This document shows positions 6,483 to 27,700 of a stretch of 33,024 nt of DNA, in pieces. Numbering within the stretch: the first letter of the stretch is position 1; every line of letters begins with the position of its first letter. Origin of the DNA: a virus (Duplodnaviria; Caudoviricetes); the IMG/VR virus record IMGVR_UViG_3300023055_000253, positions 1 through 33,024 of that record, one strand, 5' to 3'. The notes below the pieces were generated by a model. That model was not told the origin of the DNA. It was given only the letters and a program-made list of their open reading frames with translations, and ran no database searches. Made by a program: the position numbers and the translations under genes.

Positions 6483-6483
6483 C

Positions 6484-7032
6484 TCACATCCTCCGTGCGC
6501 CGCGGCGCACAGCACCCGCAAGCATGGTTGAAAGCTGCGCTTCGGATTTGCGGAAGGAAGATGCGTCGGGCGATGTCATGTTGAACACGACCTGCACGGG
6601 CTTGGAGCCATTGCCGCCAGTTGCAACGCCCAGCCTGCCATCAGCACCGCGCGCCAGCGGCAGGATCGCTTCCGCACCCGCCTCACCCGTCAGGCCCAGC
6701 GAACCATTTCCCATGCCAAAATAAGTGGGGCTTGAAACAACCCCGCCCTTGGCAAAAGGCATGATGCCGCGAATGCCGCCCATCACACCCGACATTAGCG
6801 AGGAGCCAAGGCTTTGCAGTGGCTGAAGCCCAGCAGAAAGCGCTGAGCCTGCCAAACTGCTGGCAAGCCCGCGCAGCACATCATCAAGCCCCTTGCCAGA
6901 AACGATTGCACTTTTCAGTGCCGTTGTCAGGCTTGAGCCGAAGCTTGACGAACGCTTTTCAAGATCGGTCAGAGCGCGATCAAAGGCGCTCGTGTCCGCC
7001 TCGACGGAAACGGTTACGTTTTCATCTGTCAT
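6484..7032 (-). CDS. GTA short tail tape measure protein (g11)
   Basis: 182 aa, Ala/Ser/Gly-rich; FAKGGVV...GEAGAEAILPL motif. Confidence 0.88.
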   Translation of the reverse strand: MTDENVTVSVEADTSAFDRALTDLEKRSSSFGSSLTTALKSAIVSGKGLDDVLRGLASSLAGSALSAGLQPLQSLGSSLMSGVMGGIRGIMPFAKGGVVSSPTYFGMGNGSLGLTGEAGAEAILPLARGADGRLGVATGGNGSKPVQVVFNMTSPDASSFRKSEAQLSTMLAGAVRRGARRM

Positions 7033-7038
7033 GTTAAA

Positions 7039-7254
7039 TTACCTGTCGGGAAAGGCGTGCATCAGCGCGTCGAGTGTCGCGCGCGAAGGAGCATTCGTGC
7101 TCTGCGAAACGGGTCCAAGAACGGCGCCAAGTTCGCGTGGGGTCATGGCCCAGAAGTCTTTTGAAGAAAGCCGCAGCAAACCAAAACCTGCGCGCATCAC
7201 CTCTTCCCAGGGAAAAGGCTGACGTGAAGGAACCGATTCAACTGCGGCACTCAA
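7039..7254 (-). CDS. GTA tail assembly chaperone C-terminal part (g10.1)
   Basis: FWAMTPREL...LMHAFPD motif. The TTG start overlaps the g10 stop and lies in the -1 frame of g10. Confidence 0.82.
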   Translation of the reverse strand: MSAAVESVPSRQPFPWEEVMRAGFGLLRLSSKDFWAMTPRELGAVLGPVSQSTNAPSRATLDALMHAFPDR

Positions 7255-7589
7255 GGGTTTGAAGGAGAATCGCTTTCTTCGGTTCCGAAGGTCGCGGTGA
7301 GCAGTGCTGAAACGATGCGGGCATAGCCGCTCGCGCCGCCATCTGCTCGCATTTCTGCTACATCTTCAAACGGCACATCATGTCCACCGCCATGCAAACC
7401 GGCGCAGATGATACGCTGCATATCGAAGGCAGAAAGTTTGCCGCTCGAAAATCGGGCAATCAGATCAGAGAGATTGTCCGCTTCAAAAGCAGACTCCAGT
7501 TGTGCCAGCGCACCCAGCGTCAGGCAGAGTATCCAGTCGCGGCCATCAAGTTTTGCCGCAACCTCACCGCGATGGCGATTGACCATCAT
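7251..7589 (-). CDS. GTA tail assembly chaperone (g10)
   Basis: NRHRGEV...LCLTLGALAQLE; follows the tail tube gene. Confidence 0.88.
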   Translation of the reverse strand: MMVNRHRGEVAAKLDGRDWILCLTLGALAQLESAFEADNLSDLIARFSSGKLSAFDMQRIICAGLHGGGHDVPFEDVAEMRADGGASGYARIVSALLTATFGTEESDSPSNP

Positions 7590-7999
7590 AGTGCCTCTCC
7601 GAAGGTGATCAGTCCTGCGGATTCCAGTGCAATTTCAAACGTCACTTCCGCATCATGATTGCCGCCATATTCAAGGGCCACAATCTGGAAAGGACCGGTG
7701 ATGGTGCCAAAGTCGGGCAGCAAGATCTGCCAGTTGCGAATCTCACCATCAAAGAACACACTACGGATAAGAGCATCCGATGTTGCATCCTTGAATATGC
7801 CCGATCCGCTGATCGAAGCTCGTTGCACGCCGCTTCCGGCCAGCAGTTGCCGCCACCGACCGGCAGCATCCGCATCTGTCACATCGACGGTTTCGGCATT
7901 GAAAGCAATGCGCTTGGTGCGCAAGCCAGCACAGGTTTCAAACTGGTCCGTGCCATGCGCAATTTTCAGCAAGATATCCTTGCCGCGTTGAGCTGCCAT
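7586..7999 (-). CDS. GTA major tail tube protein (g9, TP901-1 family)
   Basis: Start reassigned to ATG 7999 (MAAQRGKDILLKI) with GAGGA RBS; GRWRQLLAGSG. Confidence 0.92.
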   Translation of the reverse strand: MAAQRGKDILLKIAHGTDQFETCAGLRTKRIAFNAETVDVTDADAAGRWRQLLAGSGVQRASISGSGIFKDATSDALIRSVFFDGEIRNWQILLPDFGTITGPFQIVALEYGGNHDAEVTFEIALESAGLITFGEAL

Positions 8000-8009
8000 T
8001 CTGTGTTCC

Positions 8010-8123
8010 TCGATCTTTTTTGCTTTTACGCGCATCTTAATTCTGATCGAAGCGGGATCAGAAATCAGTCCAATGGACTGATTTCTCCGCATAGACGGTT
8101 CCCACTTTTCGGGATGCGCTTTA
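8010..8123. repeat. Intergenic palindromic repeat (Bru-RS/RIME-like) with nested hairpins
   Basis: Minus strand reads AAAGCGCATCCCGAAAAGTGGGAACCG...AAGATGCGCGTAAAAGCAAA. It contains a perfect IR AGAAATCAGTCCA-A-TGGACTGATTTCT (8060-8086) and TTCTGATC/GATCAGAA (8041-8063). Confidence 0.65.
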
Positions 8124-8531
8124 ATTTTCCGGTTCGGTCACGGCGCGATAGCGCATGGTGCCGAGATAGCTGCCGAACCCGTCCGTGTTGCGGGCTAGAA
8201 CTTCGGTAAGCATGAGATTAACGACGCGATGGCCATTGAGATTGAGTGGTTCTTCATCGAGCCTCGTTGCGATACGCCCGGCAATTTCAAGCACGCGTTT
8301 GCGGCCTGCTTCACGCGCCCATATCTGGATATTGAGATAATGTTCTCCACCCGGCTCAGAGGCCGTATTCCAGTCCTTGCTCAGCGTTTCGCCGAGCGTG
8401 ACATAAGGAAATGGAGTCTTGGGCGGAACGTGATCATAAACATGCTCACCCCCAAGTGTTTCAATAAGTTCTTCGTCATTCTTCAAGGCGTCATAAAGTG
8501 CCTTCTGCAATGCTGCCGCGCCGTTCCTCAT
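8121..8531 (-). CDS. GTA tail terminator protein (g8, DUF3168)
   Basis: Start reassigned to ATG 8531 with GGGGAG RBS; ALQKALY, VYDHVP, FPYVTLG. Confidence 0.88.
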   Translation of the reverse strand: MRNGAAALQKALYDALKNDEELIETLGGEHVYDHVPPKTPFPYVTLGETLSKDWNTASEPGGEHYLNIQIWAREAGRKRVLEIAGRIATRLDEEPLNLNGHRVVNLMLTEVLARNTDGFGSYLGTMRYRAVTEPEN

Positions 8532-8667
8532 CTTGCTCCCCGCTTGATTTTTGAGTGTCGCGCCGGGCAATCAGCTGCCCGGTGGCAATATCCTCCCGCA
8601 CCGCGATTTGCCTGAAACGCAGTGCCCGAACGAGACCATCGAAGGTCAGTTTCATCGTGATATTCAC
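8491..8667 (-). CDS. Small hypothetical protein between GTA g7 and g8 (58 aa, not in the ORF track)
   Basis: GTG start overlaps the g7 stop (GTGA) with a GGAGGAGG RBS. Translates MNITMKLTFDGLVRALRFRQIAVREDIATGQLIARRDTQKSSGEQDEERRGSIAEGTL. Confidence 0.65.
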   Translation of the reverse strand: MNITMKLTFDGLVRALRFRQIAVREDIATGQLIARRDTQKSSGEQDEERRGSIAEGTL

Positions 8668-9002
8668 CGCCCCTCCTCCACCGCCAGGCAGATAAGGTAA
8701 CGTCCGCGTTCATCCGGATCGTGGACAGAGCGCAGCGTGAAAACACGCCCACCTTTGCGGAAGCGTTTGTCTGTCGCGATATCTTCACGATGACGCACCA
8801 GAATGCGGTGGGTGATCTCCGGGCGTGGCCGGATACCGAAATCCCGCTGACTAGTTGATAGGGGTTCAATACGACCCCAAACAGTCCCGATCTCCGACCA
8901 TGTTTCGCGATAGCCACCCATGTCATCAGCAACAGACTGCATGGCCTCCAGGGCCAACTCAGTCGTGAGCTGACCCGGATCAATAAACAACACGTTGTTC
9001 AT
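8664..9002 (-). CDS. GTA head closure/stopper protein (g7)
   Basis: DDMGG...W...VWGRIEP, THRILVR, DPDERGRYL (SPP1 gp16-like pattern). Confidence 0.88.
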   Translation of the reverse strand: MNNVLFIDPGQLTTELALEAMQSVADDMGGYRETWSEIGTVWGRIEPLSTSQRDFGIRPRPEITHRILVRHREDIATDKRFRKGGRVFTLRSVHDPDERGRYLICLAVEEGR

Positions 9003-9559
9003 AGGGATATTCGTCGCCAGCTATCGACCATCTGGCCAACCATCACAGGCAGTTCAGCCTTGGTTGTATCTAGGCCTGCGCGGTTCTCGTAGAGATGCGC
9101 AGTCAAAGTGAGTATCGCCTGTTTGAGCGCGTCTGGCACTTCAACGCCGGTTTCCCCAAACCCTGCAATGAAGTCGACCTCAAGGCCACAGAACGTCTGT
9201 GCATCGGGATATTGCGCCATGTAAACACGTTGCGGACGGCGGCCATGCTGGAGCATGAACTCTTCAGGCTCCATGCTGATTGCACTGCCATCAGGACGAT
9301 ATGCGACCACAGCTGTGACAGCTTTTACCGGATACTTGAAAATAGCGAGACGCCCCGAGCGCGGCCAGCGATCAACGCGCAGGCGCCATGTCTGATCAAC
9401 CAGTGCAAGCCCCGTCTCGGCTTCGACAAGCTCGCGCGCGGTCTTGATAATACGGCGCAAAATCTCGTCTTCGCTTTCAGTCGAAATTCGCAAAAATGCG
9501 CGTGCGTCAGCAATCGTCACCGGCTCCAGCGCCGGCGGCGTGACAAGAAACATTGTCAT
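8999..9559 (-). CDS. GTA head-tail adaptor (g6)
   Basis: PPALEPVT, VPDALKQAILTLTAHLYENR. Confidence 0.9.
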   Translation of the reverse strand: MTMFLVTPPALEPVTIADARAFLRISTESEDEILRRIIKTARELVEAETGLALVDQTWRLRVDRWPRSGRLAIFKYPVKAVTAVVAYRPDGSAISMEPEEFMLQHGRRPQRVYMAQYPDAQTFCGLEVDFIAGFGETGVEVPDALKQAILTLTAHLYENRAGLDTTKAELPVMVGQMVDSWRRISL

Positions 9560-9682: not shown

Positions 9683-10945
9683 TCAGGCTGTGAACTTCAG
9701 AAGCTTGACCGCATCAAAATCCTGCACACCGCCGCCCACGCGTTTAGTGGTGTAGAAAAGCACGTATGGCTTGGCAGAATATGGATCGCGCAACACGCGC
9801 ACACCGATACGATCCACCACCAGATAGCCGCGTTCAAAATCGCCAAAGGCAATCGGCGTTCCGTCAGCTGCAATGTCTGGCATATGCTCGGCCTCGACCA
9901 GACCAAAGCCCATCAGCGATGCCTTTTCACCAACAGCCGCTGGTGGCTGCCAGAGGTAGTTGCCGTCTGCATCTTTCAGCTTGCGCAATACGCTCTGTGT
10001 CTTGCGGTTCATCACAAAATTGGCGTTCTGGCGATAACCAGCTTTCAGCGCATAGATGAGTTCAATTAGTTTGTCGGATGGATCGGAAGCAGGCAATGCG
10101 CCGTCAACGCCAGTGGCTATGTGGCCGATCTTGCCCCACTCCCAGCTTGCATCTTCAACGGTGCTGTAGCTCAGGAAGCCCATCGGCTTGTTCAGGCCAT
10201 TGCCGGTGATGAAGGCAGCACCTTCCTGCTCGGCAAAGGCTGCTTCGACTTCTTCCGCGATCCACTGCTCAACGTTGACAGCTGCGTCATCAAGCAATGA
10301 AGAAGTGGCCGCAGGCATTGCGTAGATTTCCATCGTCGGGAACTGCAACTCTGCAAGCTTGGCCGAAGCTGTCTGCGGACGCGCATCGGTTTCACCGACC
10401 CAGCCTGTTGCGGGGCCGCTGACCGAGAATGGCTTTTTCAGCACAGCACCGGAAACCTGACGCACACTGGAAATGCCACGGATCGGTGACAGCACGGCCA
10501 GACGACGACCGATTTCGGTTTCGAGTTCCGCAGGCACCAGATAGCCGCCATCCGGACCAGATGCATAGGAATGGGCCTTTTGCTCAATGCCACGCATCGC
10601 CTGCTCGTCGCCACGGCGCACATAACCGTCAAAAGCCTGCTTATGCTCGACATCGACGATAGCATTGCCCTTGCCAAGCTGCGGACGCGCACTTTTCAAA
10701 ACATACTGGTCAAGTGCCTGTTTTTGTTCGTCCAGCGCACGGTTGATACGATCAACCTTGTCGCGCAGCAGCACATCGACATCGGCACTTTTTTCGACCT
10801 TTTTCAGACGCTCATCATTGGCTTCACGAAAAGCCGAGAAAGCGGTCATGAATTCATCGAAGGCTTCCGACACATCGCCGTTGTTTCCAAGCGCCTTCGT
10901 TTCCACGCTCTTGGTTTCGAGCGGGATTGCATGACTTTTTACCAT
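9683..10945 (-). CDS. GTA major capsid protein (g5, HK97 fold)
   Basis: DGGYLVP, FITGNGLNKPMGFL, RDPYSAKPYVLFYTTKRVGGGV. Confidence 0.96.
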   Translation of the reverse strand: MVKSHAIPLETKSVETKALGNNGDVSEAFDEFMTAFSAFREANDERLKKVEKSADVDVLLRDKVDRINRALDEQKQALDQYVLKSARPQLGKGNAIVDVEHKQAFDGYVRRGDEQAMRGIEQKAHSYASGPDGGYLVPAELETEIGRRLAVLSPIRGISSVRQVSGAVLKKPFSVSGPATGWVGETDARPQTASAKLAELQFPTMEIYAMPAATSSLLDDAAVNVEQWIAEEVEAAFAEQEGAAFITGNGLNKPMGFLSYSTVEDASWEWGKIGHIATGVDGALPASDPSDKLIELIYALKAGYRQNANFVMNRKTQSVLRKLKDADGNYLWQPPAAVGEKASLMGFGLVEAEHMPDIAADGTPIAFGDFERGYLVVDRIGVRVLRDPYSAKPYVLFYTTKRVGGGVQDFDAVKLLKFTA

Positions 10946-10958
10946 TTTTGATCCTGAT

Positions 10959-11627
10959 TTAATTAAGTTGCATCATCTTGCAGGCGGCGCGCATACGCTG
11001 CGCAAGCGCCTTATCATCTGCCTGGAAAGCGTCCCGCCCGTCCCGGCTTTGCATGGCTGCAAGCGCTGAATAGCCTTTGGCTATAACCAAACGTGCAGCA
11101 GAACGGCTCAGCCCCGCATCCCGCGTGAGCCAGCGTTCAAATTCTCTGACTGTCGGCAATTCCGCCTTCAGATTATCGATGCGTGCCTGTGGCAGCATAG
11201 GAAACGTGACCACCGAGATTTCCCAGAGATCTGCTTCCGTGATGTGGCGCAAACCGGTCCGCGCATCCTTGCGCGCTTTGACTGTGCGAAAGCCGATGGA
11301 TAGCCCATCCAGCCCACCAGCGCGCATGAGTTCCAGCGCCTCGCGTGCCCGTGCCACGCCCTTGGCCAGTCTGCCCTCGACATAAAGGCCGCGTGCATCC
11401 TCACGAATATCAATCCAGACACCGATCGGTTCAGCCGCATCATGCTGCCAGAGCATTCGCACACCAGAAGATTGACGCGACGCAAGCGACTTTGCAAAGG
11501 CGCCTTTTTCGATCACATCATTTCCAAGATCAGCTAAGCCGAACACACTGGCATAGCCTGAAAAACTGCCGTCGATTTCGATCTCTTCGAGCGCCAGTGA
11601 TGCGCGCTTGGTTTCAAGCTTTGTCAT
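10959..11627 (-). CDS. GTA prohead protease (g4, HK97 family)
   Basis: Start reassigned to ATG 11627 with AGGAG RBS; FSGYASVFG, MLWQHD, GLSIGF, LWEISVVTFP. Confidence 0.93.
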   Translation of the reverse strand: MTKLETKRASLALEEIEIDGSFSGYASVFGLADLGNDVIEKGAFAKSLASRQSSGVRMLWQHDAAEPIGVWIDIREDARGLYVEGRLAKGVARAREALELMRAGGLDGLSIGFRTVKARKDARTGLRHITEADLWEISVVTFPMLPQARIDNLKAELPTVREFERWLTRDAGLSRSAARLVIAKGYSALAAMQSRDGRDAFQADDKALAQRMRAACKMMQLN

Positions 11628-11991
11628 TCCGGCTCCTTTGCAAAGATGGGAGACCGGGAAGCGGTGCATGTTTCACACGTTCCGCAAAGCGCTTGAGAAT
11701 GCCAAGCACCGACCATGCGGCAAGACTTGCAGCGGTTGCGCCCATCAGCATCACCTCGGCACGACCAAGCAGCGGTTCAAGTGACAGTGTTTCGGCAATT
11801 TTCACGCCCGCTGCACCGCCAAAAACCATGCCGCAGATAATGCCTACAGCAAAGCGAATGCCAGCCTCACGCTTGCCATTTGGCAACATATAAGCAAGCG
11901 ACACGGCAGAACCGGCGACCGCCCCGGCAATCTTCGCGAACCACACCAGTGTCGCATCGGATGACATCACGGTTTCACTCAGATTACTCAT
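11614..11991 (-). CDS. GTA-associated membrane protein between portal and protease
   Basis: 125 aa with three hydrophobic segments; start overlaps the portal stop. Confidence 0.75.
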   Translation of the reverse strand: MSNLSETVMSSDATLVWFAKIAGAVAGSAVSLAYMLPNGKREAGIRFAVGIICGMVFGGAAGVKIAETLSLEPLLGRAEVMLMGATAASLAAWSVLGILKRFAERVKHAPLPGLPSLQRSRNDKA

Positions 11992-13181
11992 TGCACTCTC
12001 CTTTCTGCACGCGGCTGATAGCCAACCGCATCGCGTTTTTCATCGTCACTTAAGAACGAGGCATCAGAGACGCGCCGCCATAACGATTCACGTTCCAGAG
12101 AAAGACCTTCGATGCGATCCGTGTCATGCTCAAGCCTGAGATCGCTGCCGAAAATCGGCCCCAACCAGCACCCGAAAGCCTTTGCCGTGCGGTTGATCAG
12201 CGGCAGCACTGTCAGGCGATAAAATGCGCGGTTGGCTTCGGCATAATTGGCGTAAGTGTTGTCGCCCGGAATGCCTAGCAGCATCGGCGGCACGCCAAAT
12301 GCCAAAGCAATGTCGCGAGCCGCCCCATTTTTCGCTTCGATGAAATCCATATCCTGTGGGCTGTAACCCATAGCCTTCCAGTCGAGCCCACCTTCAAGAA
12401 GCAGCGGCCGCCCCGCACCAGATGCTCCGGTGTAGCCCTCCTCAAGTTCGGTTTTCAGGCGGTCAAACTGCTCTTCAGTCAGGTTGCCACCGTCTTTGGG
12501 CGCATAGACCAGCGCACCGGAAGGCCGTGCAGAGTTATCAAGCAAAGCCTTGTTCCAGGCACCTGCCGCATTGTGCAGATCAAGCGCCATCAGAGCTGCT
12601 TCAAGCGGCGGAAAACCATAATGATCATCCAGCGGATGAAAAAGCTTCAGATGCAGGCCAAAACACCCTGCCCCCGCGAGCGAAACCATGCGGCTCGTAT
12701 TGGCTGAGCGGTAGACCAGCGATTGCGGCCAGCCGTCACTCGATGTTTCCAGCGTCACTCTTTCAGGCCGCAGAAGATGCAGCTCACGTCTACCGCTCGG
12801 CAGATCGACGCGCTCGACATATGCATTTCCCGAAATCAGCAAATGCCCATAAAGCCGCTCGAAGAAACTGCTACCATCAAGCCCGCATTGCGGTGTCGCG
12901 ATGAGGTCGAGCAACGGATGCACCTCATGTTCGGTCATGCCTTCATAGAGCAGCCACGGTACATTGCTGGCCGCTTCCGCGATCAGCCGCACGCAGCGAT
13001 GCGCGACCGGATTGCGCATGAAGCCCTCACGAGCGAGCGACGTATAATCCCGCGCAATCCACGAAGCGCCGCGCTCCATATGCAGCGCCACGAAGCCATT
13101 TGCGCTTTTTCTCTCTCGCCCCGCTTCAGAATACGAAGGGGCATTCGCAGCACCTCTGCGCCACGGCCAGTTCCACGCCAT
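11988..13181 (-). CDS. GTA portal protein (g3, HK97 family)
   Basis: NPVAHRCV, NSARPSGAL, FGVPPMLLGIPGDNTYANY; likely ATG at 13181. Confidence 0.95.
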   Translation of the reverse strand: MAWNWPWRRGAANAPSYSEAGRERKSANGFVALHMERGASWIARDYTSLAREGFMRNPVAHRCVRLIAEAASNVPWLLYEGMTEHEVHPLLDLIATPQCGLDGSSFFERLYGHLLISGNAYVERVDLPSGRRELHLLRPERVTLETSSDGWPQSLVYRSANTSRMVSLAGAGCFGLHLKLFHPLDDHYGFPPLEAALMALDLHNAAGAWNKALLDNSARPSGALVYAPKDGGNLTEEQFDRLKTELEEGYTGASGAGRPLLLEGGLDWKAMGYSPQDMDFIEAKNGAARDIALAFGVPPMLLGIPGDNTYANYAEANRAFYRLTVLPLINRTAKAFGCWLGPIFGSDLRLEHDTDRIEGLSLERESLWRRVSDASFLSDDEKRDAVGYQPRAERRVQ

Positions 13182-13208
13182 ATATCGGCTCTCCAATAAA
13201 GTTAAATT

Positions 13209-14054
13209 TTACCCGAAGCGCCGGATACGTGGCTTTCGTTCGCCACCCAGCATGAGTTCGGTCAGCGCCCAAACGAGTGCATCAAGGCGATCCGGCGAGC
13301 GTCCGTTCGAGAGCCCTTCCGGCGCAAAGTCACACATTTCGTCTTCAAGTGCTGCGAAACGCCCGGTATGGCGAACACGCCCCTGTTCATAAAGGGCTGC
13401 CACCGGTTCGGCGCGCAACCACTTGCCGCGCGAGGCACGCCGCATCAAAACCGGCACCGTCGCATCTTCCGCCGCAAGCACGGCTGCAACCATTTCGCCG
13501 CCCTGATTAACCTCAGCCAGAACCGCATCCGCTTCAAAGGAGTGATAAAGCGCAATCGCCCGTCGCGCCCATTGATGTGGCTTGGCCATGTTCATGGTTT
13601 CATCGGCAAGCACATGCGCAATGCCATTTTCATCGATACCTGCAACCACAATCCCGCAAGCATCCGACGACTTACCCGATGAAGCAGGCGGATCAATCGC
13701 CACCAGAATACGGATCAACTCAGGAGCGGACTGTTCAAAACATTGCTCAATCCGCTCACGCGACCACAAGGCGCCTGCGCGTTCTTCGATAAGCTCGCCT
13801 TCCAGTTCCTGTCGTCCGAGCCTTGTTCCGGCATATCGCTGGTTAATCGTCTCAATAAAACCATTCGCCAGATTGGCTACGTTTTCAGCTGTCCGCATAT
13901 GTGTCATCGAAACTGAAACATCGCATATCAATGCCTTCAACAAAGGCACGGCCCGCGGTGTCGTCGTCACAACCTGACGCGGGAAATCGCCCAGACGCAG
14001 GCCAAATTGCAGCATGTCCCATGTGGCTTGCGGATTTTTCCACTTGGCCAGCTC
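13209..14054 (-). pseudogene. terL: GTA large terminase (g2), 3' portion only, interrupted by prophage
   Basis: The frame upstream of ATG 14015 continues as ELAKWKNPQATWD-MLQFGLRLG up to 14054, then gives R-C-stop (TAG at 14061-14063) instead of the family Walker B WCDE. TTTPR motif and nuclease motifs (AIDPP, SPDRLDALVW) are intact; Walker A is absent from the window. Confidence 0.9.
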
Positions 14055-14093
14055 CCTACACTATAGAATTGCGTGCAACAGGCAGTTGTAGGG
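14030..14093. other. Candidate prophage attachment junction (hybrid att site)
   Basis: Terminase coding similarity is lost abruptly at 14054/14055, 86 bp upstream of a serine integrase start. An imperfect palindrome lies at 14054-14093. Confidence 0.7.
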
Positions 14094-14140
14094 CAAAGTG
14101 TTAATTCAAACTTGCTACATCACTGAAAACAAAGGGTTAA

Positions 14141-15979
14141 ATGATGGCTGGTAACATGCATCCGAAAACGAAGGCGTATTCATACGTTCGTATTTCGTCA
14201 AAAGGCCAGATTGATGGTCGCGGCATTAGTCGTCAGGTGCAAGCAGCGCAAGACTATGCAGATAAGCATGAACTCGATTTAGATTCGAAACTATCGGACA
14301 TCGGCAAATCCGGCTTTCACGGACACCATGTAAAATTCGGTGCGCTCGGTAACTTCCTGCGCTTGGTCAAAGATGGTCAAATACCGATTGGTTCGTATCT
14401 GCTAGTCGAGTCCCTTGATCGCTTGTCGCGTGAAGACGTTCTAACAGCGCAATCGCAGTTCTTAGATATTTTGAGTGCTGGTATTACGATTGTCACGCTC
14501 ATTGATGGAATGGTCTACCACAAGGATAAGGACTTCACTCAGTTGATCATCTCGCTCACGTACATGAGCAGAGCAAACAACGAATCAAAGGAAAAGTCTG
14601 ATCGAATCAAAGATGTGATCCGTAATCGCAAACTCGAAGCGTTGCAGGGTAAGCCGCGATACAATCATCATCTTGTAGGCTGGATTGATCAGAAGCGGGT
14701 TGGCGAAACGAAAGACTATGAGTTCTCGTTGAATGATAAGGCTAAGACGGTTCAGCGCATATTTGAGTTATTCGATGAAGGTTTAGGCGTCTTCTCAATT
14801 GCAAAGATATTGAACACCGAGAAACTTCCTGTCTTGCGTACTAACACAAATACGGATCAACGCTGGAAAGACGCAACCATTCGCCTGCTGCTACGAAATG
14901 AAACTGCAATAGGCACATACACGATCACCGAGACAGTGAATGGCAAAACGGTGCCAATGGGTGAGCCGCTCAAAAACTATTACCCTGCCGCTATACCAGA
15001 GGATTTGTTCTGGCGCGTGCAGAGGCGTTTTAAGAGCAAGTCGCGAGCGGGAGCATTAGGACGTCGCTACGCAAACTTGTTTGCACGAAACACATCATGC
15101 GCAAAATGTGGTCGCGTTCTTAAAATGTCGCGTGGCGGACATGAGGGCAATCGGATTGTTTACCTGACATGTGCACAACGGCAATTGGTTAAAGGTCACG
15201 AGTGCGACTCGCCTACTCCACTCTTTCCATATGCTCCGCTTGAAGACTCCGTTCTGACATACGTAACTGACTTCTACGAAGCAGCCGCAGCAGAAATGAA
15301 CGCACCGCACAAAAACAAAGCGAAACTCGCCAAGCAGTTAGATGATGCAAACGAATATCTGATCTCGATTGAAAAGAAGCGGTCGAATTTGATGAAGTTG
15401 GCCGAACAAGACTTAGATGCCGCTGACCTAGCCGATATTAGCAAACGCATGCGAGAGTGGCGCGATAAGATCGAAGAACAAAAATCGTATATCAGTGGTC
15501 TCGAAACTGACATTCGGCAGACTGACGAAAAGCGGGAGGAACTGCAAAGCGTACTTCAGCAGATCGAATCAGAGCGCAAGAAATGGAAAACGGCTGGAGA
15601 CGACGAGGTGATGCAGAGCCGCGCTCGTGTTGCGAAAATGCTGCGAGAGTTCATCACAACCGTTGAAGTGGACTTCGACAATCAATTTGCAACGATTTGG
15701 GTCGGTGGCTTTACGAGCGCTTACAGGTTCGACCGAAAAGGTAATCTGGTTAGTCACGTCAACATTCTCCCAATGTTCCAAACTGGTCCTGTGCGAACTT
15801 ATGTTGACCGCACACCTTCTGGACGTGCGCGACGTATCCGCGTTCTAACCGATGCGCCTGACGTTCCTGCAATGACTGACGATATGATGCGTACCATGAT
15901 GATGAATATGGGGTGGAATGAATCACGGATAGAAATGGCAATGGAAGCAAGCAAGCGCATCCGTGAAAGCGTTATGTAG
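14141..15979 (+). CDS. Large serine recombinase (integrase)
   Basis: AYSYVRISS with catalytic Ser, ESLDRLSR, recombinase domain (GVFSIAKILN...YPAAIPEDLF), zinc ribbon CAKCG...C...C, coiled coil. Confidence 0.93.
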   Translation: MMAGNMHPKTKAYSYVRISSKGQIDGRGISRQVQAAQDYADKHELDLDSKLSDIGKSGFHGHHVKFGALGNFLRLVKDGQIPIGSYLLVESLDRLSREDVLTAQSQFLDILSAGITIVTLIDGMVYHKDKDFTQLIISLTYMSRANNESKEKSDRIKDVIRNRKLEALQGKPRYNHHLVGWIDQKRVGETKDYEFSLNDKAKTVQRIFELFDEGLGVFSIAKILNTEKLPVLRTNTNTDQRWKDATIRLLLRNETAIGTYTITETVNGKTVPMGEPLKNYYPAAIPEDLFWRVQRRFKSKSRAGALGRRYANLFARNTSCAKCGRVLKMSRGGHEGNRIVYLTCAQRQLVKGHECDSPTPLFPYAPLEDSVLTYVTDFYEAAAAEMNAPHKNKAKLAKQLDDANEYLISIEKKRSNLMKLAEQDLDAADLADISKRMREWRDKIEEQKSYISGLETDIRQTDEKREELQSVLQQIESERKKWKTAGDDEVMQSRARVAKMLREFITTVEVDFDNQFATIWVGGFTSAYRFDRKGNLVSHVNILPMFQTGPVRTYVDRTPSGRARRIRVLTDAPDVPAMTDDMMRTMMMNMGWNESRIEMAMEASKRIRESVM

Positions 15980-16004
15980 ATTGGAGGATAAAAATCCTCC
16001 AATC
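15979..16004. terminator. Hairpin between convergent integrase and late genes
   Basis: Perfect 11-bp stem GATTGGAGGAT-AAAA-ATCCTCCAATC; no clear U-tract. Confidence 0.55.
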
Positions 16005-16015
16005 GAATTGATGGC

Positions 16016-16201
16016 TCAATCGTTTCTCTGTGTCCAAGAAGTGTTTTCCACGTCCCAAATCCAATCGTTACCCGCTGGCGGCGCTGGAACTGCTATGAGG
16101 TTAGTCAGATATTTCGGCTCAACATCCTCACCTGTTAGCGTGCTGATTATGACGAGCGAACTTTTTGCCGTGTTCCAATAAAAATGATCTTTAATATCCA
16201 T
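16016..16201 (-). CDS. Small protein, possible tail fibre assembly factor
   Basis: ATG at 16201 overlaps the fibre stop (TAATG). 61 aa with PAPP...WIWD....W pattern. Confidence 0.55.
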   Translation of the reverse strand: MDIKDHFYWNTAKSSLVIISTLTGEDVEPKYLTNLIAVPAPPAGNDWIWDVENTSWTQRND

Positions 16202-17682
16202 TATCGTGTCGTCCCAAAATAATATCCAGTCCATGAATAAGAGCCTGATCCGCTTCGTTCAATGCGAATGGACTCGCCCTGACGGACTCGGCAGAACTGG
16301 TTATTGGTGCATGTAACGCCGGTTGATGTATTCCACGCTCGCAGAGAAATCGTGTTTGTAGTCGATACCAGCCCCTGAACCATCAAGTCATAACCAGTGG
16401 TGTTTTGCCATTCCTGGCCGTGACTGTTTAAGGAAACTTGGCCTGTAATAGCGTTGAAAACAGATCGATTACGCGCTTCTTGTGTCGCCCAAGCGCTTGC
16501 GCGGCCTTCAATCTGGTTAGAAATGGTCGCTTGTGTCCAACCTCCTACTGAGTTCACGTTGAAGTTCGACGGGTTATAGACATACATGTTAACGCCGTCT
16601 GATCCGCCCCAAACCCATGTCGGCTGTCCGCCTTGTCCAGACCAGTTGAATTGCATATTCACCCCGCCAACACGACGCGGATATGCATAACCGTTCATAT
16701 TGCCGTTAGTCGCTGTGGTGATAGCGCTGCTGACCTGAGCCGGTGTCTGTGGCGTGTAACCGAGAGCGCCGGTAATATCACCCGCCACCAGCGTTAGTGC
16801 GTGGGTGTGACCTGTTGCAGTAACTGAGTTTGTCGTTGAATTAGTAACAGTCGTAGGCGCACCCAGCGTGATCGTAACACCGCCGCTAATAGTACCGCCA
16901 CCAGTGAGACCATTCCCCGCCGTTACTGTTTTATTGAATGCATTATCGACATACGTTTTCGTGGCCGCTGCATTTCCAGAAGTCGGTGCAGTTGGCAAAA
17001 TCAACTGACCATCTGTTTGCAAAGTCATTTCTTTATAGGAAGTATCGTCGGTGCTGTAAGCGCGTAATGCAAGCGAGTTGTTCGTGCCATTATTAAAAAT
17101 GAGGCCAGTTACTTTATTATCTGGGGCGCGAAACCAAACGTGGCGATTACCTGCTGCATTGATGTAAACGGAACCACCGTCTGCGCTAACAAACTTCGTA
17201 GTAGCCGTGCCTGTAACGTTGATGTTCTCCACCGTTGTAAGGCCGGTGAAAGCAGGGTTAGCAGTGTTCGTCGAAAGCAAGCGGAAACTCGTTCCATCAA
17301 ACGCAACTTCGACAACCTGATCCTTATTGATCTGGTTTGCAGTGATCGGGCTTCCGTCATTATTGACGATTGAGCGAGCAGCCTGTGCGTTCACTTTGAG
17401 TGAAGCAGGACCAGTATTAGCAACATGAGCGATAAACGCGTATCGGTCGCCACGAACAAATTCTGTTGGGCCAACATCGAATGTCAGGACATAAGCAGCG
17501 CCCGTTCCTGACGATATTTTGCGTGGATTTTCGCGAGTGTCTTTGCGCTTCACTGCGCCTTTGTCTGCGCGAATAATATCGTAAAGACTTGTTGGAGGTG
17601 TACCAGCAGGTAAACCATCTGGCGGAGGAGCGACGTTAAGAACGTCTTCTTCCATCCATTTCGAACTATTAATATCAGCCAT
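16201..17682 (-). CDS. Tail fibre protein
   Basis: 493 aa, Thr/Gly/Asn-rich; AATKTYVD, AGNGLTGGG, GHTHA, FNWSGQGGQPTWVWGG modules typical of fibres. Confidence 0.85.
   Translation of the reverse strand: MADINSSKWMEEDVLNVAPPPDGLPAGTPPTSLYDIIRADKGAVKRKDTRENPRKISSGTGAAYVLTFDVGPTEFVRGDRYAFIAHVANTGPASLKVNAQAARSIVNNDGSPITANQINKDQVVEVAFDGTSFRLLSTNTANPAFTGLTTVENINVTGTATTKFVSADGGSVYINAAGNRHVWFRAPDNKVTGLIFNNGTNNSLALRAYSTDDTSYKEMTLQTDGQLILPTAPTSGNAAATKTYVDNAFNKTVTAGNGLTGGGTISGGVTITLGAPTTVTNSTTNSVTATGHTHALTLVAGDITGALGYTPQTPAQVSSAITTATNGNMNGYAYPRRVGGVNMQFNWSGQGGQPTWVWGGSDGVNMYVYNPSNFNVNSVGGWTQATISNQIEGRASAWATQEARNRSVFNAITGQVSLNSHGQEWQNTTGYDLMVQGLVSTTNTISLRAWNTSTGVTCTNNQFCRVRQGESIRIERSGSGSYSWTGYYFGTTR
17389..17405. 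repeat. Dispersed palindrome copy 1 (gTTCACT-TTG-AGTGAAG)
   Basis: Read directly; inside the tail fibre gene. Confidence 0.85.
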
Positions 17683-17737
17683 TAAGCCACCTTATTATTG
17701 TTGTTATGTGGTGTTCTTCGTATTTAAACTTGGAATA

Positions 17738-19807
17738 TTATCTGCGTGGTCCCGGCATCAGTTTATTGCTAATGTCGTTGAATTCTTCTTCTACCCAATC
17801 CGCACCATATTCCTTGCTCAGTTCACGACCTAGGTTGCGAAGAATCTTACTGTGATCCATCAATGCGCCCTGTTGCTGTGCAAGAGGAATGTCTGCAAAC
17901 CATTTGACGACACGCGGATCGGTAGCAATGCGTGACTGAATCGAGTTGTAACCCGAAACAACGCCTACCGTTTTACCAATCTTTTTCCAGCCGAATATCG
18001 CATCAGTTGCTGGGTCTGTCTTACCCGATGCTTTCTGAGCCTTGATACGTGCCTCCGTAATACGTGCAAGGCGGTCTAGGTCTTCACGTGCTGCCGAATG
18101 GGAAGTGCCCTTAAACATTGCGTCTTTCGCTTCCGGCGACATCTTGTTCCAGTTTTGAAGGAACTTGTTGCCGGAAAACTCAACCGCATCATCAGCAGTT
18201 CGTTTCGCCCCCAATTCGGTAATGTGATGACGAACAACACTTCCCCACATATCGTTACCGTTTGCCTGTTCGATTACCTCACGAACCTTAGCAATACGCG
18301 TACCGCCATGATTGAGGTTAGCAGTAAGCATCTGGTATGCTTTTTCGCCGCTTTCGGAATTAGCAAAAGGATCTAATACTTTGTCCGTTCCATTCGGACC
18401 TAATCGAGACTTGTATGCCTCATCTGCTTCTTTCCAAACGTCCTTTGCACGACCACCAAGACCATCAGCGGCTTGCTCCATGTCCTTTGACACGGCATCA
18501 CGTACGCGAACCAAATAGTTCTTGAGAGCAGGATTTGTATCTCGAGCAAAAGCGAGACGCCCTAATTCCTCACGCGCATCTTGCATTTCGCGGAAAGTCA
18601 GTCCTTTGCGAGCATCTTTAACAAGAGCATCTGTACGCTTGAGGACAGTATCCAGATAAGGTCCTTTGTCGATTTTTGCTGTGTTAGAAAGTTCCTTCTG
18701 CTCCGTCTTTAGTGTCTTACTAAGATCGGTAATATTAGGCGCTCTAGTAGTTGCAGCACCAGCAAGATTGTCCGTTTCCTTATACAAGTCGCCGACACGC
18801 TTATTGATGAAATCTTGTGACACTTTCGCTGCGTCTTGAATTGCTTCACCTACGCCCTGACGAGTGCTAGGGTTTGGATTAATCGTATCTTTAATGCGGC
18901 TAAATTCGCTCTTTAGCCCCTCGTCTAGTTCCCTAACAGTATTTGAAACACGACCATTGTCTGCTGCAATGAGGCGGTTCTCACGTGCTGCCTGACGAGG
19001 ACTACCTGACACTGTGCCGACTGTTGTCGGAAGACCTGCTTCCGAAAAGTCCTTAGCGGTCTGCGCAATCTTACCTGCATCGTCACCATCGCGGGTGAGA
19101 TACTTCGCTAGTTGGTTCTTACCCCCACGATATGCAGAACCGACACCTTTTGCGATGAGCATACCAGCGCCTTCACCAGCCGCGTTAACACCCACGTCAA
19201 TTGCTTTGTCAGTGAGGTATTCTCCTGTGTCGCGTGTATCTTCGTTGTCATACATATAGTTGATAATGCGTTCGGCGGCATCTCTTGCAGCCGCACCGCC
19301 ACCGCCAGCACCCGCAATTGCGCCGGAAACTGCGCCTGCGCCAGTACCGATAACAGGGACGGCGGAACCCGCTGCACCGCCACCTACTGTACCACCGAGA
19401 CCACCAAATAATGCGCCGAAGCCTTCTGCAATTTCAGGCACAACGCTAGATACGTCTCGCATAGTGAAACCCGGCATGTTGTAGAAGATCGTTTCGCCCG
19501 TTTCCGGGTCAGTCATAATGAAATTGTCTTCGCCATATGGCTCTGCGTTCGGGTAAGCCTTACGCAACGCATTGAGGCGGTCTTCCGGCTTCTTCAATGC
19601 ACCTAACTGCACACGAATGTTATGTGGTGCTTCTTTATTTGGATTGAGGCGGCTTTCATCTGGACGCGGTAATTGGGGGCGTTCTTCGTAAACGGCATCT
19701 TGATCCCACCAGTTATCATTTGCGACTGGTTCAGTCGGAGCAGGCGTTGCCTCTTCGACTGTTTCATCTTCATCCCACCAGTTTTCTTTCTTCTTTGCAC
19801 TAGCCAT
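17738..19807 (-). CDS. Large internal virion/DNA ejection protein
   Basis: Start reassigned to ATG 19807 (TAATG overlap), giving 689 aa. Gly/Ala-rich hydrophobic hairpin followed by a helical body; located at the ejection-gene position. Confidence 0.7.
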   Translation of the reverse strand: MASAKKKENWWDEDETVEEATPAPTEPVANDNWWDQDAVYEERPQLPRPDESRLNPNKEAPHNIRVQLGALKKPEDRLNALRKAYPNAEPYGEDNFIMTDPETGETIFYNMPGFTMRDVSSVVPEIAEGFGALFGGLGGTVGGGAAGSAVPVIGTGAGAVSGAIAGAGGGGAAARDAAERIINYMYDNEDTRDTGEYLTDKAIDVGVNAAGEGAGMLIAKGVGSAYRGGKNQLAKYLTRDGDDAGKIAQTAKDFSEAGLPTTVGTVSGSPRQAARENRLIAADNGRVSNTVRELDEGLKSEFSRIKDTINPNPSTRQGVGEAIQDAAKVSQDFINKRVGDLYKETDNLAGAATTRAPNITDLSKTLKTEQKELSNTAKIDKGPYLDTVLKRTDALVKDARKGLTFREMQDAREELGRLAFARDTNPALKNYLVRVRDAVSKDMEQAADGLGGRAKDVWKEADEAYKSRLGPNGTDKVLDPFANSESGEKAYQMLTANLNHGGTRIAKVREVIEQANGNDMWGSVVRHHITELGAKRTADDAVEFSGNKFLQNWNKMSPEAKDAMFKGTSHSAAREDLDRLARITEARIKAQKASGKTDPATDAIFGWKKIGKTVGVVSGYNSIQSRIATDPRVVKWFADIPLAQQQGALMDHSKILRNLGRELSKEYGADWVEEEFNDISNKLMPGPRR

Positions 19808-20709
19808 TAGCCAAGCCCTCTCATCCCACCGAGACCACCTAAGCCACCTTGTCTCGCTAGCATTGCGAGTTGCAGTTCCCACGGTTTCAACTTCTTCTTT
19901 TCGTCGGGTGCGCCCAGACTATTTAATAGGCTCACTTGAACGTTGCCGCCGCCACCAATCAGGCCACCTGTCTGTGCTGCTTCGCGATTGAAATCGTCTT
20001 CCTGCTTCGTGAAAATCTTGGCTGCTTCACCTAGTGCGCTTGTCGCGTCCTTAGTTTTTACACCTGCAATCTCGTCGGGTAAGAAGTTCAGATTGATTAA
20101 GCGCTTTTTCTTCTCTGGCTCTGCCTCCGTCGTTTCTGTTGCAGTGGGCTGAGTGTTCGCGTTCGGCTGGCTTGTCGCTGGCTGTGCCGGTGCTGCTTCA
20201 CTTTGAGTGAAGGTATTCGGATCAGCGCTTTGAGCCTTCACATCGCGCAGTTGATCGGCTGGCGTACCGTAAAGCGTGTTTGCGTGTTTTAGGCGATTGC
20301 CCCAACCGTGACCCGCTGTAGGGTTGTCAGCACGCCAGCCTTGCGGACGCTCATAACCGATCATTGCCGCCGTTGCTGAATGGACGTTGTCTGCTTGCTT
20401 TAGACGATTAAAGGCAGCGCTCTCGGTCGTCTTGAGTTCGTGTACCACGAAGTCCAATTGAGTATCGAGATCAGTAACAGGCTTCTTCTGATCCGCTGCA
20501 AACGCGTGAAGTGCCTTAGCGCGTCCACCGTTCCATTGCGCTAAGCCAATACTATCCGAACCATCGCGACCATCGCCGGGATTGCGAGCGCCGGTATTCA
20601 TGCTGCTTTCCTGCATGAGATTGCCGACAACTCCCGCTGCTTGAACAGGTGTTAAATTGTATCGACGCTGTAGATAATCATACGCATATCGCGCATTTGA
20701 GTTTGCCAC
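19807..20709 (-). CDS. Virion-associated phage tail-type lysozyme
   Basis: LTPVQAAGVVGNLMQES, SIGLAQWNGGR, TQLDFVVHEL, YERP (Phage_lysozyme2-like), then a low-complexity linker. Confidence 0.87.
   Translation of the reverse strand: MANSNARYAYDYLQRRYNLTPVQAAGVVGNLMQESSMNTGARNPGDGRDGSDSIGLAQWNGGRAKALHAFAADQKKPVTDLDTQLDFVVHELKTTESAAFNRLKQADNVHSATAAMIGYERPQGWRADNPTAGHGWGNRLKHANTLYGTPADQLRDVKAQSADPNTFTQSEAAPAQPATSQPNANTQPTATETTEAEPEKKKRLINLNFLPDEIAGVKTKDATSALGEAAKIFTKQEDDFNREAAQTGGLIGGGGNVQVSLLNSLGAPDEKKKLKPWELQLAMLARQGGLGGLGGMRGLG
20196..20212. repeat. Dispersed palindrome copy 2 (CTTCACT-TTG-AGTGAAG)
   Basis: Read directly; in the lysozyme linker region. Confidence 0.85.
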
Positions 20710-20760
20710 TTTTTCACCTCGTCCCCTTTGGGGCTTCTTATTATTCTTTGTATATTGTAC

Positions 20761-22311
20761 TTATTTCTTTACTTTACGAGTGCCATCAGGAGCAATATAA
20801 ACTGTACCAGATGGAAGCGCATCACGTTCTTCAATTGAAGTAACCTTCGGGAGATTGGTATCAACTGATTCAGCATCTTCGTTTGCTTTGCGTTCGTCGT
20901 ACGCTTTCTGCTCTGCAACTGCCTTTTTAAGACCAGTTGTGATGTTAATACCTTCTTCCTCTTTCGCGGCCTTGTATGCTTTAAAGCGTTCATAAGGATT
21001 CGGGAGAGCATCCATTTCCGCATATGCATCAGTATAATGAATTTCGCCCTTCTGTGCGCGACGAGCGATTGCAGCGGCAGCCATCTTATGCTCTTGAACT
21101 GCTCGCATCGTAACGGCAATAATTTCGTTACCTTCTGGTGTGTTAGCCAAATTCGGTAGAGATCTAAGGAACATTTTCGCATCGAAGTCGGACATCGCAC
21201 CGGAACCTGCAGGACGCATACCCGGAACTAGACGATTGATTGTTGCGTCGAAGGCTTGCGCTTGAGAGAGACCTTCAACCGTGAACCCGGCTAATTCGGC
21301 CCACGGTCCGAATCGCAGTTTGAATTCAGCCCATTTGCCGGTATCCATTTCTTTTGATAGATCGAGAAGCATGTCCATGTCGCCCGCCAATTGTGGCGCA
21401 TTACGGGCATCTTGAATGATGCCTGCGAAGTCTTTCGCTGCTTCTTCGTCGCTTTTTTCCTTAAACTTGTCACTGTTGGCACCAGTGTTCACGTTGACTT
21501 TGGATGAACCCGCTGCCTTCTGTTCTTTCTGCCAAGTGTTGAAATCTAAAGGTGTTTCGCCCTTTGCAGTGGCTTGCTCGACGTAGAATTCATAGTTCTT
21601 ACGGTCAGATGTGTATTTGCCAGCGTCCTCCGCACGCGAGTTTTCGCCTAAGCCTTCAGAGTAACCCGGGGCAACGACAAGGTTGCCATCTTCACCTACG
21701 ATCATGCCCTTACCCGCTGCGCCGTCTCGCAGTTTCATAATGTGGCCAAGGACTTTGTTGGCTTCTGTGTAGTCGCCATTTGCCATCAGATGTTTGTAGA
21801 TTTGCATGAGTTGGTCTTCGCTGTAGCCCATTCCACCCGCACTTGCGCCGCCACCTGAGTCGCCACCGATGGAGTCGGAAAACGATTTGTCCGCCTGTTG
21901 TTGTTTTGCTTCTGCATCAAGTTTGGCTTGGTCCGATGCTTTCTTAGCGTTCGTTAACAACTGCTTCTGGCTTGACTCGATTGAACTGTCGTAACCCTTT
22001 ATACCAGCGGCCAATCCCTGACCTGCGATGCTAAAGAGGTTAGTAGGTTCATATGAAGGACCAGATGAAGCCATCATCTGCGCACCCATCATCATAAGCG
22101 CACGACGACGAGCCGCGGACTCATCTTCGGTCTGTTCCGGCATAAATGCGTTCAAGATAGTTTTTCGATGCGTTGGTTCTGCCTGCTCATCACCGCTCAT
22201 AACTTGTTCAATCGGGGCTTTGCTTCCCGCTGGCAAAGCAGTGGGATCAGGTTTTGATCCCAAATTAATGCCTAGTTTCTTCAATATTTCTTCAATTGGA
22301 TTCAAAGCCAT
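20761..22311 (-). CDS. Internal virion/DNA ejection protein
   Basis: 516 aa; GSGAMSDFD...SLP motif and C-terminal LPSGTVYIAPDG; synteny. Confidence 0.68.
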   Translation of the reverse strand: MALNPIEEILKKLGINLGSKPDPTALPAGSKAPIEQVMSGDEQAEPTHRKTILNAFMPEQTEDESAARRRALMMMGAQMMASSGPSYEPTNLFSIAGQGLAAGIKGYDSSIESSQKQLLTNAKKASDQAKLDAEAKQQQADKSFSDSIGGDSGGGASAGGMGYSEDQLMQIYKHLMANGDYTEANKVLGHIMKLRDGAAGKGMIVGEDGNLVVAPGYSEGLGENSRAEDAGKYTSDRKNYEFYVEQATAKGETPLDFNTWQKEQKAAGSSKVNVNTGANSDKFKEKSDEEAAKDFAGIIQDARNAPQLAGDMDMLLDLSKEMDTGKWAEFKLRFGPWAELAGFTVEGLSQAQAFDATINRLVPGMRPAGSGAMSDFDAKMFLRSLPNLANTPEGNEIIAVTMRAVQEHKMAAAAIARRAQKGEIHYTDAYAEMDALPNPYERFKAYKAAKEEEGINITTGLKKAVAEQKAYDERKANEDAESVDTNLPKVTSIEERDALPSGTVYIAPDGTRKVKK

Positions 22312-22327
22312 AGTTCACCTTTTGTTC

Positions 22328-23641: not shown

Positions 23642-23643
23642 CC

Positions 23644-24051: not shown

Positions 24052-24103
24052 AAAAACTCTAAATTTATTTCAGTTAGTATCGTTGTATTTAAAAGACTTT
24101 AGG

Positions 24104-24466: not shown

Positions 24467-24495
24467 CTTATTTGCCCTCCATGCTGGTCACAGGA

Positions 24496-24867: not shown

Positions 24868-24888
24868 CTTTTAAAAATCGTTTATTAA

Positions 24889-27631: not shown

Positions 27632-27674
27632 ATTCCCGCCCTTATTATTGTTATTCGTTATTTATTTGCGGGCA

Positions 27675-27700
27675 TAAAAAATGGGGGCCGAAGCCCCCAC
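27675..27700 (-). terminator. Rho-independent terminator after major capsid gene
   Basis: Minus strand GTGGGGGC-TTCG-GCCCCCAT-TTTTT: C(UUCG)G tetraloop plus U-tract. Confidence 0.9.

What the first reader, a model, noticed from the sequence alone, without database searches (positions are those of the whole stretch)
13209..15979. Serine-integrase prophage inserted in the Walker B motif of the GTA terminase: candidate phage-controlled GTA switch
Seen: the GTA TerL frame reads ELAKWKNPQATWDMLQFGLRLG and loses similarity at 14054/14055. A large serine recombinase starts 86 bp away, followed by a podoviral prophage, and every downstream GTA gene is intact. Known: RcGTA-family TerL has a WCDELAKW-type Walker B, and serine-integrase elements can reversibly split host genes (skin in sigK, SPbeta in spsM, Listeria comK prophage). 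Inference: integration disables GTA DNA packaging and separates the GTA operon from its upstream promoter, and precise excision would restore both. The phage would then act either as an active-lysogeny switch for host gene transfer or as a targeted inactivator of a competing packaging and lysis system. I know of no described case in a GTA terminase, but could not search.
Basis: partly seen in the sequence, partly recalled or inferred. Interest (0 to 1): 0.92.

Follow-up and report, generated by a model that had tools for sequence, protein, structure and literature searches.

The report
Prophages land in GTA packaging gene
A 35-kb prophage sits inside the DNA-packaging (terminase) gene of a bacterial gene-transfer-agent cluster, at a site that related phages use in several other Rhizobiales, so it likely switches the host's gene transfer agent off while integrated, and precise excision would restore the gene.

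Summary
Confirmed. The RcGTA-like terL is cut at the Asp|Glu codons of Walker B (14054). An intact large serine integrase starts 86 bp away, and the 14 downstream GTA genes are intact. One 43,232-bp public contig of the same strain holds both terL halves around a 35,430-bp insert with a duplicated 6-bp core.

Ten other Rhizobiales loci are broken at the same codon. In 5 of 5 genomes checked the halves rejoin in frame and give a symmetric attP. Sister integrases use two GTA capsid-gene sites and, from one junction only, the tail-tube gene. Other elements use a second terL site.

So this is a dedicated GTA landing site that likely silences the GTA. A host-serving switch is unsupported: no excised form in 7 runs' contigs, occupancy is rare, some lysogens' GTAs are decayed, and a closely related phage also uses a non-GTA site. 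Whether targeting is adaptive or a neutral landing pad is open. I found no paper describing it (10 searches). This scan noted similar cases before on other DNA (e1-7450368, e1-4332223).

The parts
740..4546 (-). GTA baseplate megatron (g15-like), intact, 1268 aa
   Evidence: NF048004 1672 bits, above cut-off
4550..9559 (-). GTA tail module: NlpC/P60 peptidase, hub, distal tail, tape measure, chaperone, tail tube, tail completion, head closure, adaptor
   Evidence: Pfam/NCBIfam; uninterrupted ORFs
9683..13196 (-). GTA head module: major capsid, prohead protease, DUF6107, portal
   Evidence: dN/dS 0.02-0.06 against the empty-site relative G033
13209..14054 (-). 3' part of the GTA large terminase, from the Walker B Glu through the coupling motif and nuclease domain
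   Evidence: 97% aa identity to intact TerL of G033
14049..14054 (-). 6-bp att core GAGCTG, duplicated at the far end; crossover inferred at its first two bases (14054-14053)
   Evidence: tables 7 and 8; GA shared by all five relatives' cores and centre of attP symmetry
14055..14084 (-). phage arm of this junction; with the far-end arm it forms a symmetric attP
   Evidence: 19 of 30 positions complementary about the GA, counted by hand from the two loose-end consensuses; null mean about 8 of 30
14141..15979 (+). large serine integrase, 612 aa, intact, with the conserved YxRxS motif
15979..16004 (.). 11-bp perfect inverted repeat between the convergent integrase and virion operon; possible terminator
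   Evidence: not called by the terminator scan
16201..33024 (-). podovirus-like (SU10-type) virion module: probable fibre, probable ejection proteins, adaptor, capsid, scaffold, portal, 3' end of the phage's own TerL; the element continues about 16.4 kb beyond the window
   Evidence: insert length 35,430 bp; fibre label is my reading, no family hit

Best explanation
A 35.4-kb podovirus-like prophage is integrated, likely by its own large serine integrase, between the Asp and Glu codons of the Walker B motif of a gene-transfer-agent terminase gene, which likely leaves the lysogen unable to package or build GTA particles until excision, which would rejoin the gene in frame. Shown: the junctions, the duplicated core, the symmetric attP and re-use of the site by integrases 38-81% identical to this one. 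Inferred: loss of TerL function, a polar effect on the 14 downstream genes, and excision tied to the phage's own lytic induction rather than to a host programme. I think the repeated use of GTA genes is most likely parasite-driven: these elements gain from landing in, and disabling, a conserved host programme that packages DNA and kills the producing cell. This parallels mobile elements that land in competence genes.
For: Both halves lie on one contig, 35,430 bp apart, with a 6-bp core. The same breakpoint occurs in 11 loci among the 110 best-scoring integrase loci listed, one being this strain. The 5' half is present and the join in frame in 5 of 5 genomes; attP symmetry is 18-21 of 30 against a null mean near 8, reached by 0-3 of about 6,100-7,200 positions. 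The terL site is spread through a well-supported 22-row integrase clade. Three more GTA sites are used by this integrase family: capsid TTKR|V (core GT, symmetry 18-19 of 30 in 3 of 3), capsid SAKP|Y (2 genomes, weaker symmetry), and tail tube (3 contigs, one junction only). A second terL site is used by elements with a different, tyrosine-type-looking integrase. The GTA label needs 5 changes on the tree. The GTA looks live: dN/dS 0.08 against G033, and DUF6456 (recalled as the GafA/GafZ activator domain) is found in 5 of 5 related genomes. In Caulobacter one promoter upstream of the terminase drives the cluster (PMC11150451) and producer death needs the cluster (PMC9632790, PMC13236601).
Against: No GTA particle or phenotype was tested, and I found no paper showing GTA function in this host group. 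A close relative of the phage (80% nt over 17 kb) sits between glmM and an outer-membrane-protein gene with a 39%-identical integrase, so the GTA site is not needed by this phage type. 21 of 42 labelled integrase rows are at non-GTA loci, and the sample was centred on a GTA-targeting query. In Rhodobacter the lysis genes are unlinked and a small-terminase mutant still lyses (PMC6854486), so the knock-out need not save the cell. The anti-curing logic of competence-gene targeting fits poorly, because donor function rather than recipient function is lost. The GTA-promoter position was not mapped in this host.
Confidence: 0.52

Rival explanations
1. Neutral landing pad: the integrases use GTA genes only because they are conserved across Rhizobiales, single-copy and dispensable; GTA loss is a side effect with no benefit to the phage.
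For: The family also uses many non-GTA loci: a rhodanese gene, the glmM-omp intergenic region, and neighbours of SleB, DUF882, DacA, KpsF and comM genes. A close relative of the phage swaps integrase and site. Unrelated cargo elements of 6-12 kb, two with flagellin plus resolvase, use the same terL site. Occupancy is low.
Against: Four of about 13 named sites of the family fall in a cluster of about 15 kb, roughly 0.3% of a genome (my arithmetic), and a second integrase type also hits terL. The Walker B window is not exceptionally conserved in DNA: 232 of 1202 windows of terL score higher (7 sequences).
Confidence: 0.33
2. Active-lysogeny switch: the element excises without lysis when the host needs GTA, restores terL and the operon, and may re-integrate.
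For: Precise in-frame restoration. Intact integrase. Downstream GTA genes are intact in this strain and give full-length hits in 3 of 5 element-carrying genomes. A candidate excision-factor ORF lies just inside the far end, on the same strand as the GTA operon.
Against: No contig bridges attB in 4 of 4 runs and no attP joint or loose end appears at the site in 4 of 4 runs; contigs drop rare forms, so this is weak. The element is not fixed in any group sampled: the nearest relatives are empty, and 0 of 400 random genomes of the order match a junction pattern. G004 has a truncated protease and a second insertion in the capsid gene, G002 has no hits beyond portal on that contig, and L164 lacks portal, protease and capsid. 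The G001 and G005 elements lack the candidate excision ORF. This element carries a full virion module.
Confidence: 0.12
3. Assembly chimera or chance recombination between a GTA and a phage contig.
For: The window is a metagenome-derived virus record with only one end of the element.
Against: Same junction in a second record and in several public runs; both ends on one contig; same codon hit in ten other loci; symmetric attP.
Confidence: 0.01

Closest known systems
Mobile elements that integrate into competence/recombination genes (comM, comYC, comGA, comFA, pilQ; PMC12378983 section 13, PMC12637031; enrichment of LSR targets in competence genes, PMC10083194)
   Same: Site-specific integration, repeated by different elements, into genes of a host gene-exchange system.
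   Different: The target is the donor-side, phage-derived GTA machine, not DNA uptake, so the anti-curing explanation does not carry over directly. The review section I read lists no GTA target.
Active lysogeny / gene-intervening elements (Listeria comK prophage, mentioned in PMC12378983; B. subtilis skin in sigK and SPbeta in spsM, recalled)
   Same: A large serine integrase splits a host gene and precise excision rebuilds it.
   Different: No evidence here of regulated, non-lytic excision; the element is rare in the genomes sampled and sometimes sits in a decayed target cluster.
Site-specific large serine recombinases with one target gene cluster (Durrant et al., PMC10083194)
   Same: Diverse integrases keep one conserved site in a coding sequence; short core, symmetric attP.
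   Different: No 'terminase', 'capsid' or 'gene transfer agent' in the main-text terms or 8 supplement files searched ('Rhizobium' is also absent there, so this negative is weak).
RcGTA-like clusters of Alphaproteobacteria (RcGTA, CcGTA)
   Same: Gene set and order from terminase to megatron; purifying selection; DUF6456 gene about 12 kb upstream in relatives.
   Different: Here it is the target. Shakya et al. (PMC5721377) found an integrase near only 1 of 91 large clusters and, in the passages read, described no insertion site.

Membership tests
Large serine integrase prophage | Catalytic, recombinase and zinc-ribbon domains with intact YxRxS motif | tested here: met
   (Zn-ribbon hit below the Pfam cut-off, but four Cys are invariant)
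Large serine integrase prophage | attL/attR with short shared core and symmetric attP | tested here: met
Large serine integrase prophage | Recombination directionality factor | tested here: inconclusive
Large serine integrase prophage | Excision and infectious particles | not testable with these tools
   Only contigs were available; no excised form seen
RcGTA-like gene transfer agent | Head-tail gene set in RcGTA order including megatron | tested here: met
RcGTA-like gene transfer agent | Purifying selection and chromosomal conservation | tested here: met
   dN/dS 0.08; portal-terL DNA match in 37 of 43 genomes of the genus
RcGTA-like gene transfer agent | GafA/GafYZ-type activator | tested here: inconclusive
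   DUF6456 in 5 of 5 relatives; this strain's chromosome is not held; the DUF6456 = GafA/GafZ link is recalled
RcGTA-like gene transfer agent | Particles that package and transfer host DNA | not testable with these tools
   No experiment possible
Active lysogeny switch | Excision restores a functional host gene | tested here: met
   In-frame join in 5 of 5 relatives; frame only, function not tested
Active lysogeny switch | Regulated excision without lysis under a host signal | not testable with these tools
   No attB/attP in contigs of 7 runs; contigs drop rare forms
Active lysogeny switch | Element kept across a host lineage with the target gene cluster preserved | tested here: not met
   Nearest relatives empty; 0 of 400 random genomes; decay in G004, G002, L164. 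One genome per species is held, so within-species frequency is untested
Elements targeting gene-exchange genes | Repeated independent targeting of one host system | tested here: met
   Five GTA sites and two integrase types
Elements targeting gene-exchange genes | Loss of gene transfer in the lysogen, with benefit to the element | not testable with these tools
   No experiment possible

The most novel reading that the evidence does not exclude
These prophages wire themselves into the GTA programme. The anti-terminated GTA promoter reads through the far-end junction into a small conserved excision-factor gene (or into the integrase, at sites with the reverse orientation), so the element excises exactly when the host commits to GTA production. 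It then either escapes the dying cell as phage in place of GTA, or rebuilds terL as a true switch.
Probability: 0.15. Interest if true: 0.87.

Novelty: new variant of a known kind. Interest (0 to 1): 0.63.

Why it matters
It points to an apparently undescribed phage-versus-GTA interaction: different integrases have come to use at least five sites in GTA packaging and structural genes. If selection drives this, GTA clusters in Rhizobiales, for which I found no functional study, must be active and costly to phages. The lysogens are natural GTA knock-outs with a defined reversion event, so both questions become directly testable in cultured rhizobia. It also flags a cause of 'broken' GTA clusters and of GTA-prophage hybrids in virus databases, and supplies a set of new integrase/attP/attB pairs with a candidate excision factor.

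Tried and rejected
(2) Excision evidence: none in contigs of X1, X2, X3, X5 (attB) or X1, X4, X6, X7 (attP). In X6 the prophage contig has depth 53.6 against 21.3 for the flank, and X4 shows 24.9 to 43.7, but X1 and X2 are near flat and contig depth is no copy number, so I do not use it. The RNA-labelled runs have contigs of 170-240 kb and identical substitutions; they likely hold DNA of one strain from one campaign, so they show neither expression nor independent occurrence.
(3) Complex prediction for integrase plus candidate excision factor: tool not available, so binding is open. The small protein is 96% identical to a relative of the B. rhizosphaerae copy, whose integrase is only 39% identical to this one, which weakens a cognate-RDF reading. 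Conserved motifs upstream of it also occur at the non-GTA site, so it may have its own promoter.
(4) No sigma-70 promoter or terminator at 13900-14400; no Rfam hit in the window.
(5) Idea that the same site is used in real phage terminases: 120 viral loci with the upstream Walker B pattern all continue in frame past the motif, 0 of 120 split there.
(6) 15 weak or multi-match genomes of the family sample were re-searched; none was a new Walker B split. About 25 other single weak matches were not examined.
(7) The careful tree did not finish; the quick tree is used.
(8) No close cultured phage: best capsid identity 43%.
(9) Literature: 10 searches gave no description of prophage integration in a GTA gene. 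Subscription journals are mostly missing, and supplements were searched for one paper only.

Full report
OBSERVATION. The window joins an RcGTA-like cluster (740-14054, minus strand) to a phage region. The terminase frame begins abruptly at ELAKWK. Empty-site relatives have WCD directly before it, and the motif aligns with T4 gp17 YIDE (E=0.06; Walker B label recalled; RcGTA TerL's Walker motifs are noted in PMC6854486, passages). An intact 612-aa large serine recombinase starts 86 bp away on the other strand, followed by a convergent SU10-type podoviral virion module with no close cultured relative. The 14 GTA genes downstream are intact. Against the nearest empty-site genome G033 (96% nt over portal-terL) their pooled dN/dS is 0.08; this mostly reflects history before the insertion. 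G033 lies in the genus of Brucella rhizosphaerae and has 5.5 Mb, so the host is likely a former Ochrobactrum; the species was not determined.

THE FAR END. The held genome is only this contig, so I laid public contigs on G033's intact terL. In run X2 one 43,232-bp contig holds the 5' part (record 3397-4503; 17 substitutions, no gaps over 1,107 bp, including the upstream candidate terS) and the 3' part (39928-41027). The two overlap in GAGCTG (window 14054-14049), giving an insert of 35,430 bp. Runs X1, X3 and X5 show the same two loose ends. Seven listed substitutions inside the 5' terL are all silent (3 of the 17 were not shown by the tool). The two phage arms are complementary at 19 of 30 positions about the GA of the Glu codon (hand count). 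No contig bridged the empty site in 4 of 4 runs, and no attP joint appeared in 4 of 4 runs. Contigs drop rare forms. The runs probably hold one strain, so they rule out misassembly but are not independent occurrences.

THE SITE IS DEDICATED. Scans with the integrase family gave 243 loci with hits, some duplicated between collections. Among the 110 best-scoring, 11 have the 3' terL piece 35-91 bp upstream: this strain (L001), six genomes (labelled Pseudorhodoplanes MAG, Rhizobium album, Mycoplana azooxidifex, Shinella, Neorhizobium MAG, Rhizobium MAG), one metagenome contig and three viral contigs. All break at the same codon, with integrases 38-81% identical to this one. In 5 of 5 genomes with long contigs the 5' half is present. 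The cores (3-9 bp) all include GA, the join is in frame and aligns with intact TerL, and attP symmetry is 18-21 of 30 against 7-10 for attB and a null mean near 8. The inserts differ: a 38-kb prophage in Shinella and elements of 6-12 kb in three others. The site is rare: 326 of 400 family genomes have a TerL match, with Walker B splits seen only in G001 and the centre genome (about 25 weak single matches unexamined), and a junction pattern hit 0 of 400 random genomes of the order plus the centre.

GTA GENES ARE HIT REPEATEDLY. The same family uses the capsid gene at TTKR|V (G008, G454, G455; core GT; symmetry 18-19 of 30) and at SAKP|Y (G004, G456; weaker symmetry, 11-14 of 30), with both halves found in 5 of 5. 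It also uses the tail-tube gene (3 viral contigs, one junction seen). On a quick tree of 59 hand-picked integrases the terL site is spread over a 22-row clade, and the GTA label needs 5 changes (17 rows unlabelled; L027 and L089 left out; non-GTA labels are nearest genes, mostly unmapped sites). Against over-reading: 21 of 42 labelled rows are non-GTA, and a prophage 80% identical to this one sits between glmM and an omp gene with another integrase.

HOW IT LIKELY WORKS. Shown: junctions, core, attP symmetry, frame restoration. Inferred: the integrase recombines attP with the terL attB at the GA. The lysogen would make at most a truncated N-terminal ATPase piece lacking the coupling motif and nuclease, and portal-to-megatron would lose their promoter. 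In Caulobacter a single start site upstream of the terminase, with anti-termination, drives the whole cluster (PMC11150451, passages); this is not mapped here. A small ORF just inside the far end is a candidate excision factor, but binding could not be modelled and the protein tracks the phage more closely than the integrase.

WHY THE SITE IS USED. (a) Adaptive knock-out (0.52): GTA production kills producers and needs the cluster in Caulobacter (PMC9632790, PMC13236601, passages). Four of about 13 named sites in about 0.3% of the genome is more than a random draw gives (my arithmetic). Against it, Rhodobacter lysis genes are unlinked (PMC6854486, section 8 read). (b) Neutral landing pad (0.33): conserved, dispensable DNA is a small part of the genome, so the excess could arise without benefit. 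(c) Host-serving switch (0.12): frame restoration fits, and GTA genes give full-length hits in 3 of 5 lysogen genomes (single stop flags there also occur in empty-site genomes and were not checked one by one). Rarity, decay in G004, G002 and L164, and no excised forms argue against it.

COMPARISON AND NOVELTY. It works like serine-integrase elements that split host genes (comK in PMC12378983; skin and SPbeta recalled) and like elements that target competence genes (PMC12378983 section 13 read whole; PMC12637031 and PMC10083194 passages). It is a member of the large-serine-integrase prophages. It fails the one population-level test of an active-lysogeny switch that I could run. Ten literature searches and term searches in PMC5721377, PMC8224337, PMC11080155, PMC10883770, PMC12286644 (passages) and the 8 supplement files of PMC10083194 found no description of prophages integrating in GTA genes. 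The library lacks most subscription papers, and other papers' supplements were not searched. This scan had noted related cases on other DNA. Verdict: real, a new variant of a known kind, interest 0.63; the boldest open reading, coupling of excision to the GTA programme, has probability about 0.15.

Noticed in passing
L265:886-1053(-), L268:8500-8637(-), L269:10051-10242(+), L314-L316, L467:18030-18209(-), L021:11940-12122(+); P0141: A 45-63 aa protein of no known family lies about 145 bp inside the far end, in several elements just before DUF2958. 118 homologs. Candidate excision factor. A small palindrome upstream varies in a compensatory way in G454.
   Followed up: partly
L312 (G060:C12:94000-107500), L313 (G140:C80:1500-18000): Second GTA terL site near the 3' end (D[Q/E]MC codons), holding 10- and 13-kb elements with a tyrosine-type-looking integrase (weak Pfam hit in G060, none in G140). 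The G060 element has its own TerL, capsid and portal genes. This fits earlier finding e1-7450368.
   Followed up: partly
L266:6223-8256, L267:8751-10841: The 12-kb and 7-kb non-phage elements in the terL site of G001 and G005 each carry a long flagellin gene (677 and 696 aa frames) and a resolvase.
   Followed up: no
L333 (G004:C11:296000-315500): Neorhizobium UBA3556 carries two elements in one GTA cluster (terL and capsid gene) and a truncated protease gene.
   Followed up: partly
L465/L467/L468 (G006:C26): Brucella rhizosphaerae PR17 has a roughly 36-kb prophage 80% identical to this one over 17 kb, between glmM and an omp gene. Its far half has lysozyme, endonuclease I, resolvase and defence-like cargo (SIR2-like, AbiJ-N/DUF7014, DUF2971), but no recognised polymerase, primase, helicase or repressor among 26 ORFs scanned.
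   Followed up: partly
L264:64-1851: The Shinella S4-D37 prophage has an IS66 element next to a 254-aa N-terminal piece of its portal gene, so it is probably defective.
   Followed up: no
L009:9597-9923, L005: Close integrases cut a rhodanese-domain gene right after a YCAG motif (recalled as its active-site loop), again a conserved catalytic motif.
   Followed up: partly
L327:9362-9865: The nearest empty-site genome G033 seems to have a frameshift in its GTA tail-tube gene.
   Followed up: no
L344-L463: 120 viral contigs carry terminases with nearly the same GPQFHFAWCDEL motif as the GTA TerL but no GTA-type portal hit nearby; a large phage group with a GTA-like terminase.
   Followed up: no
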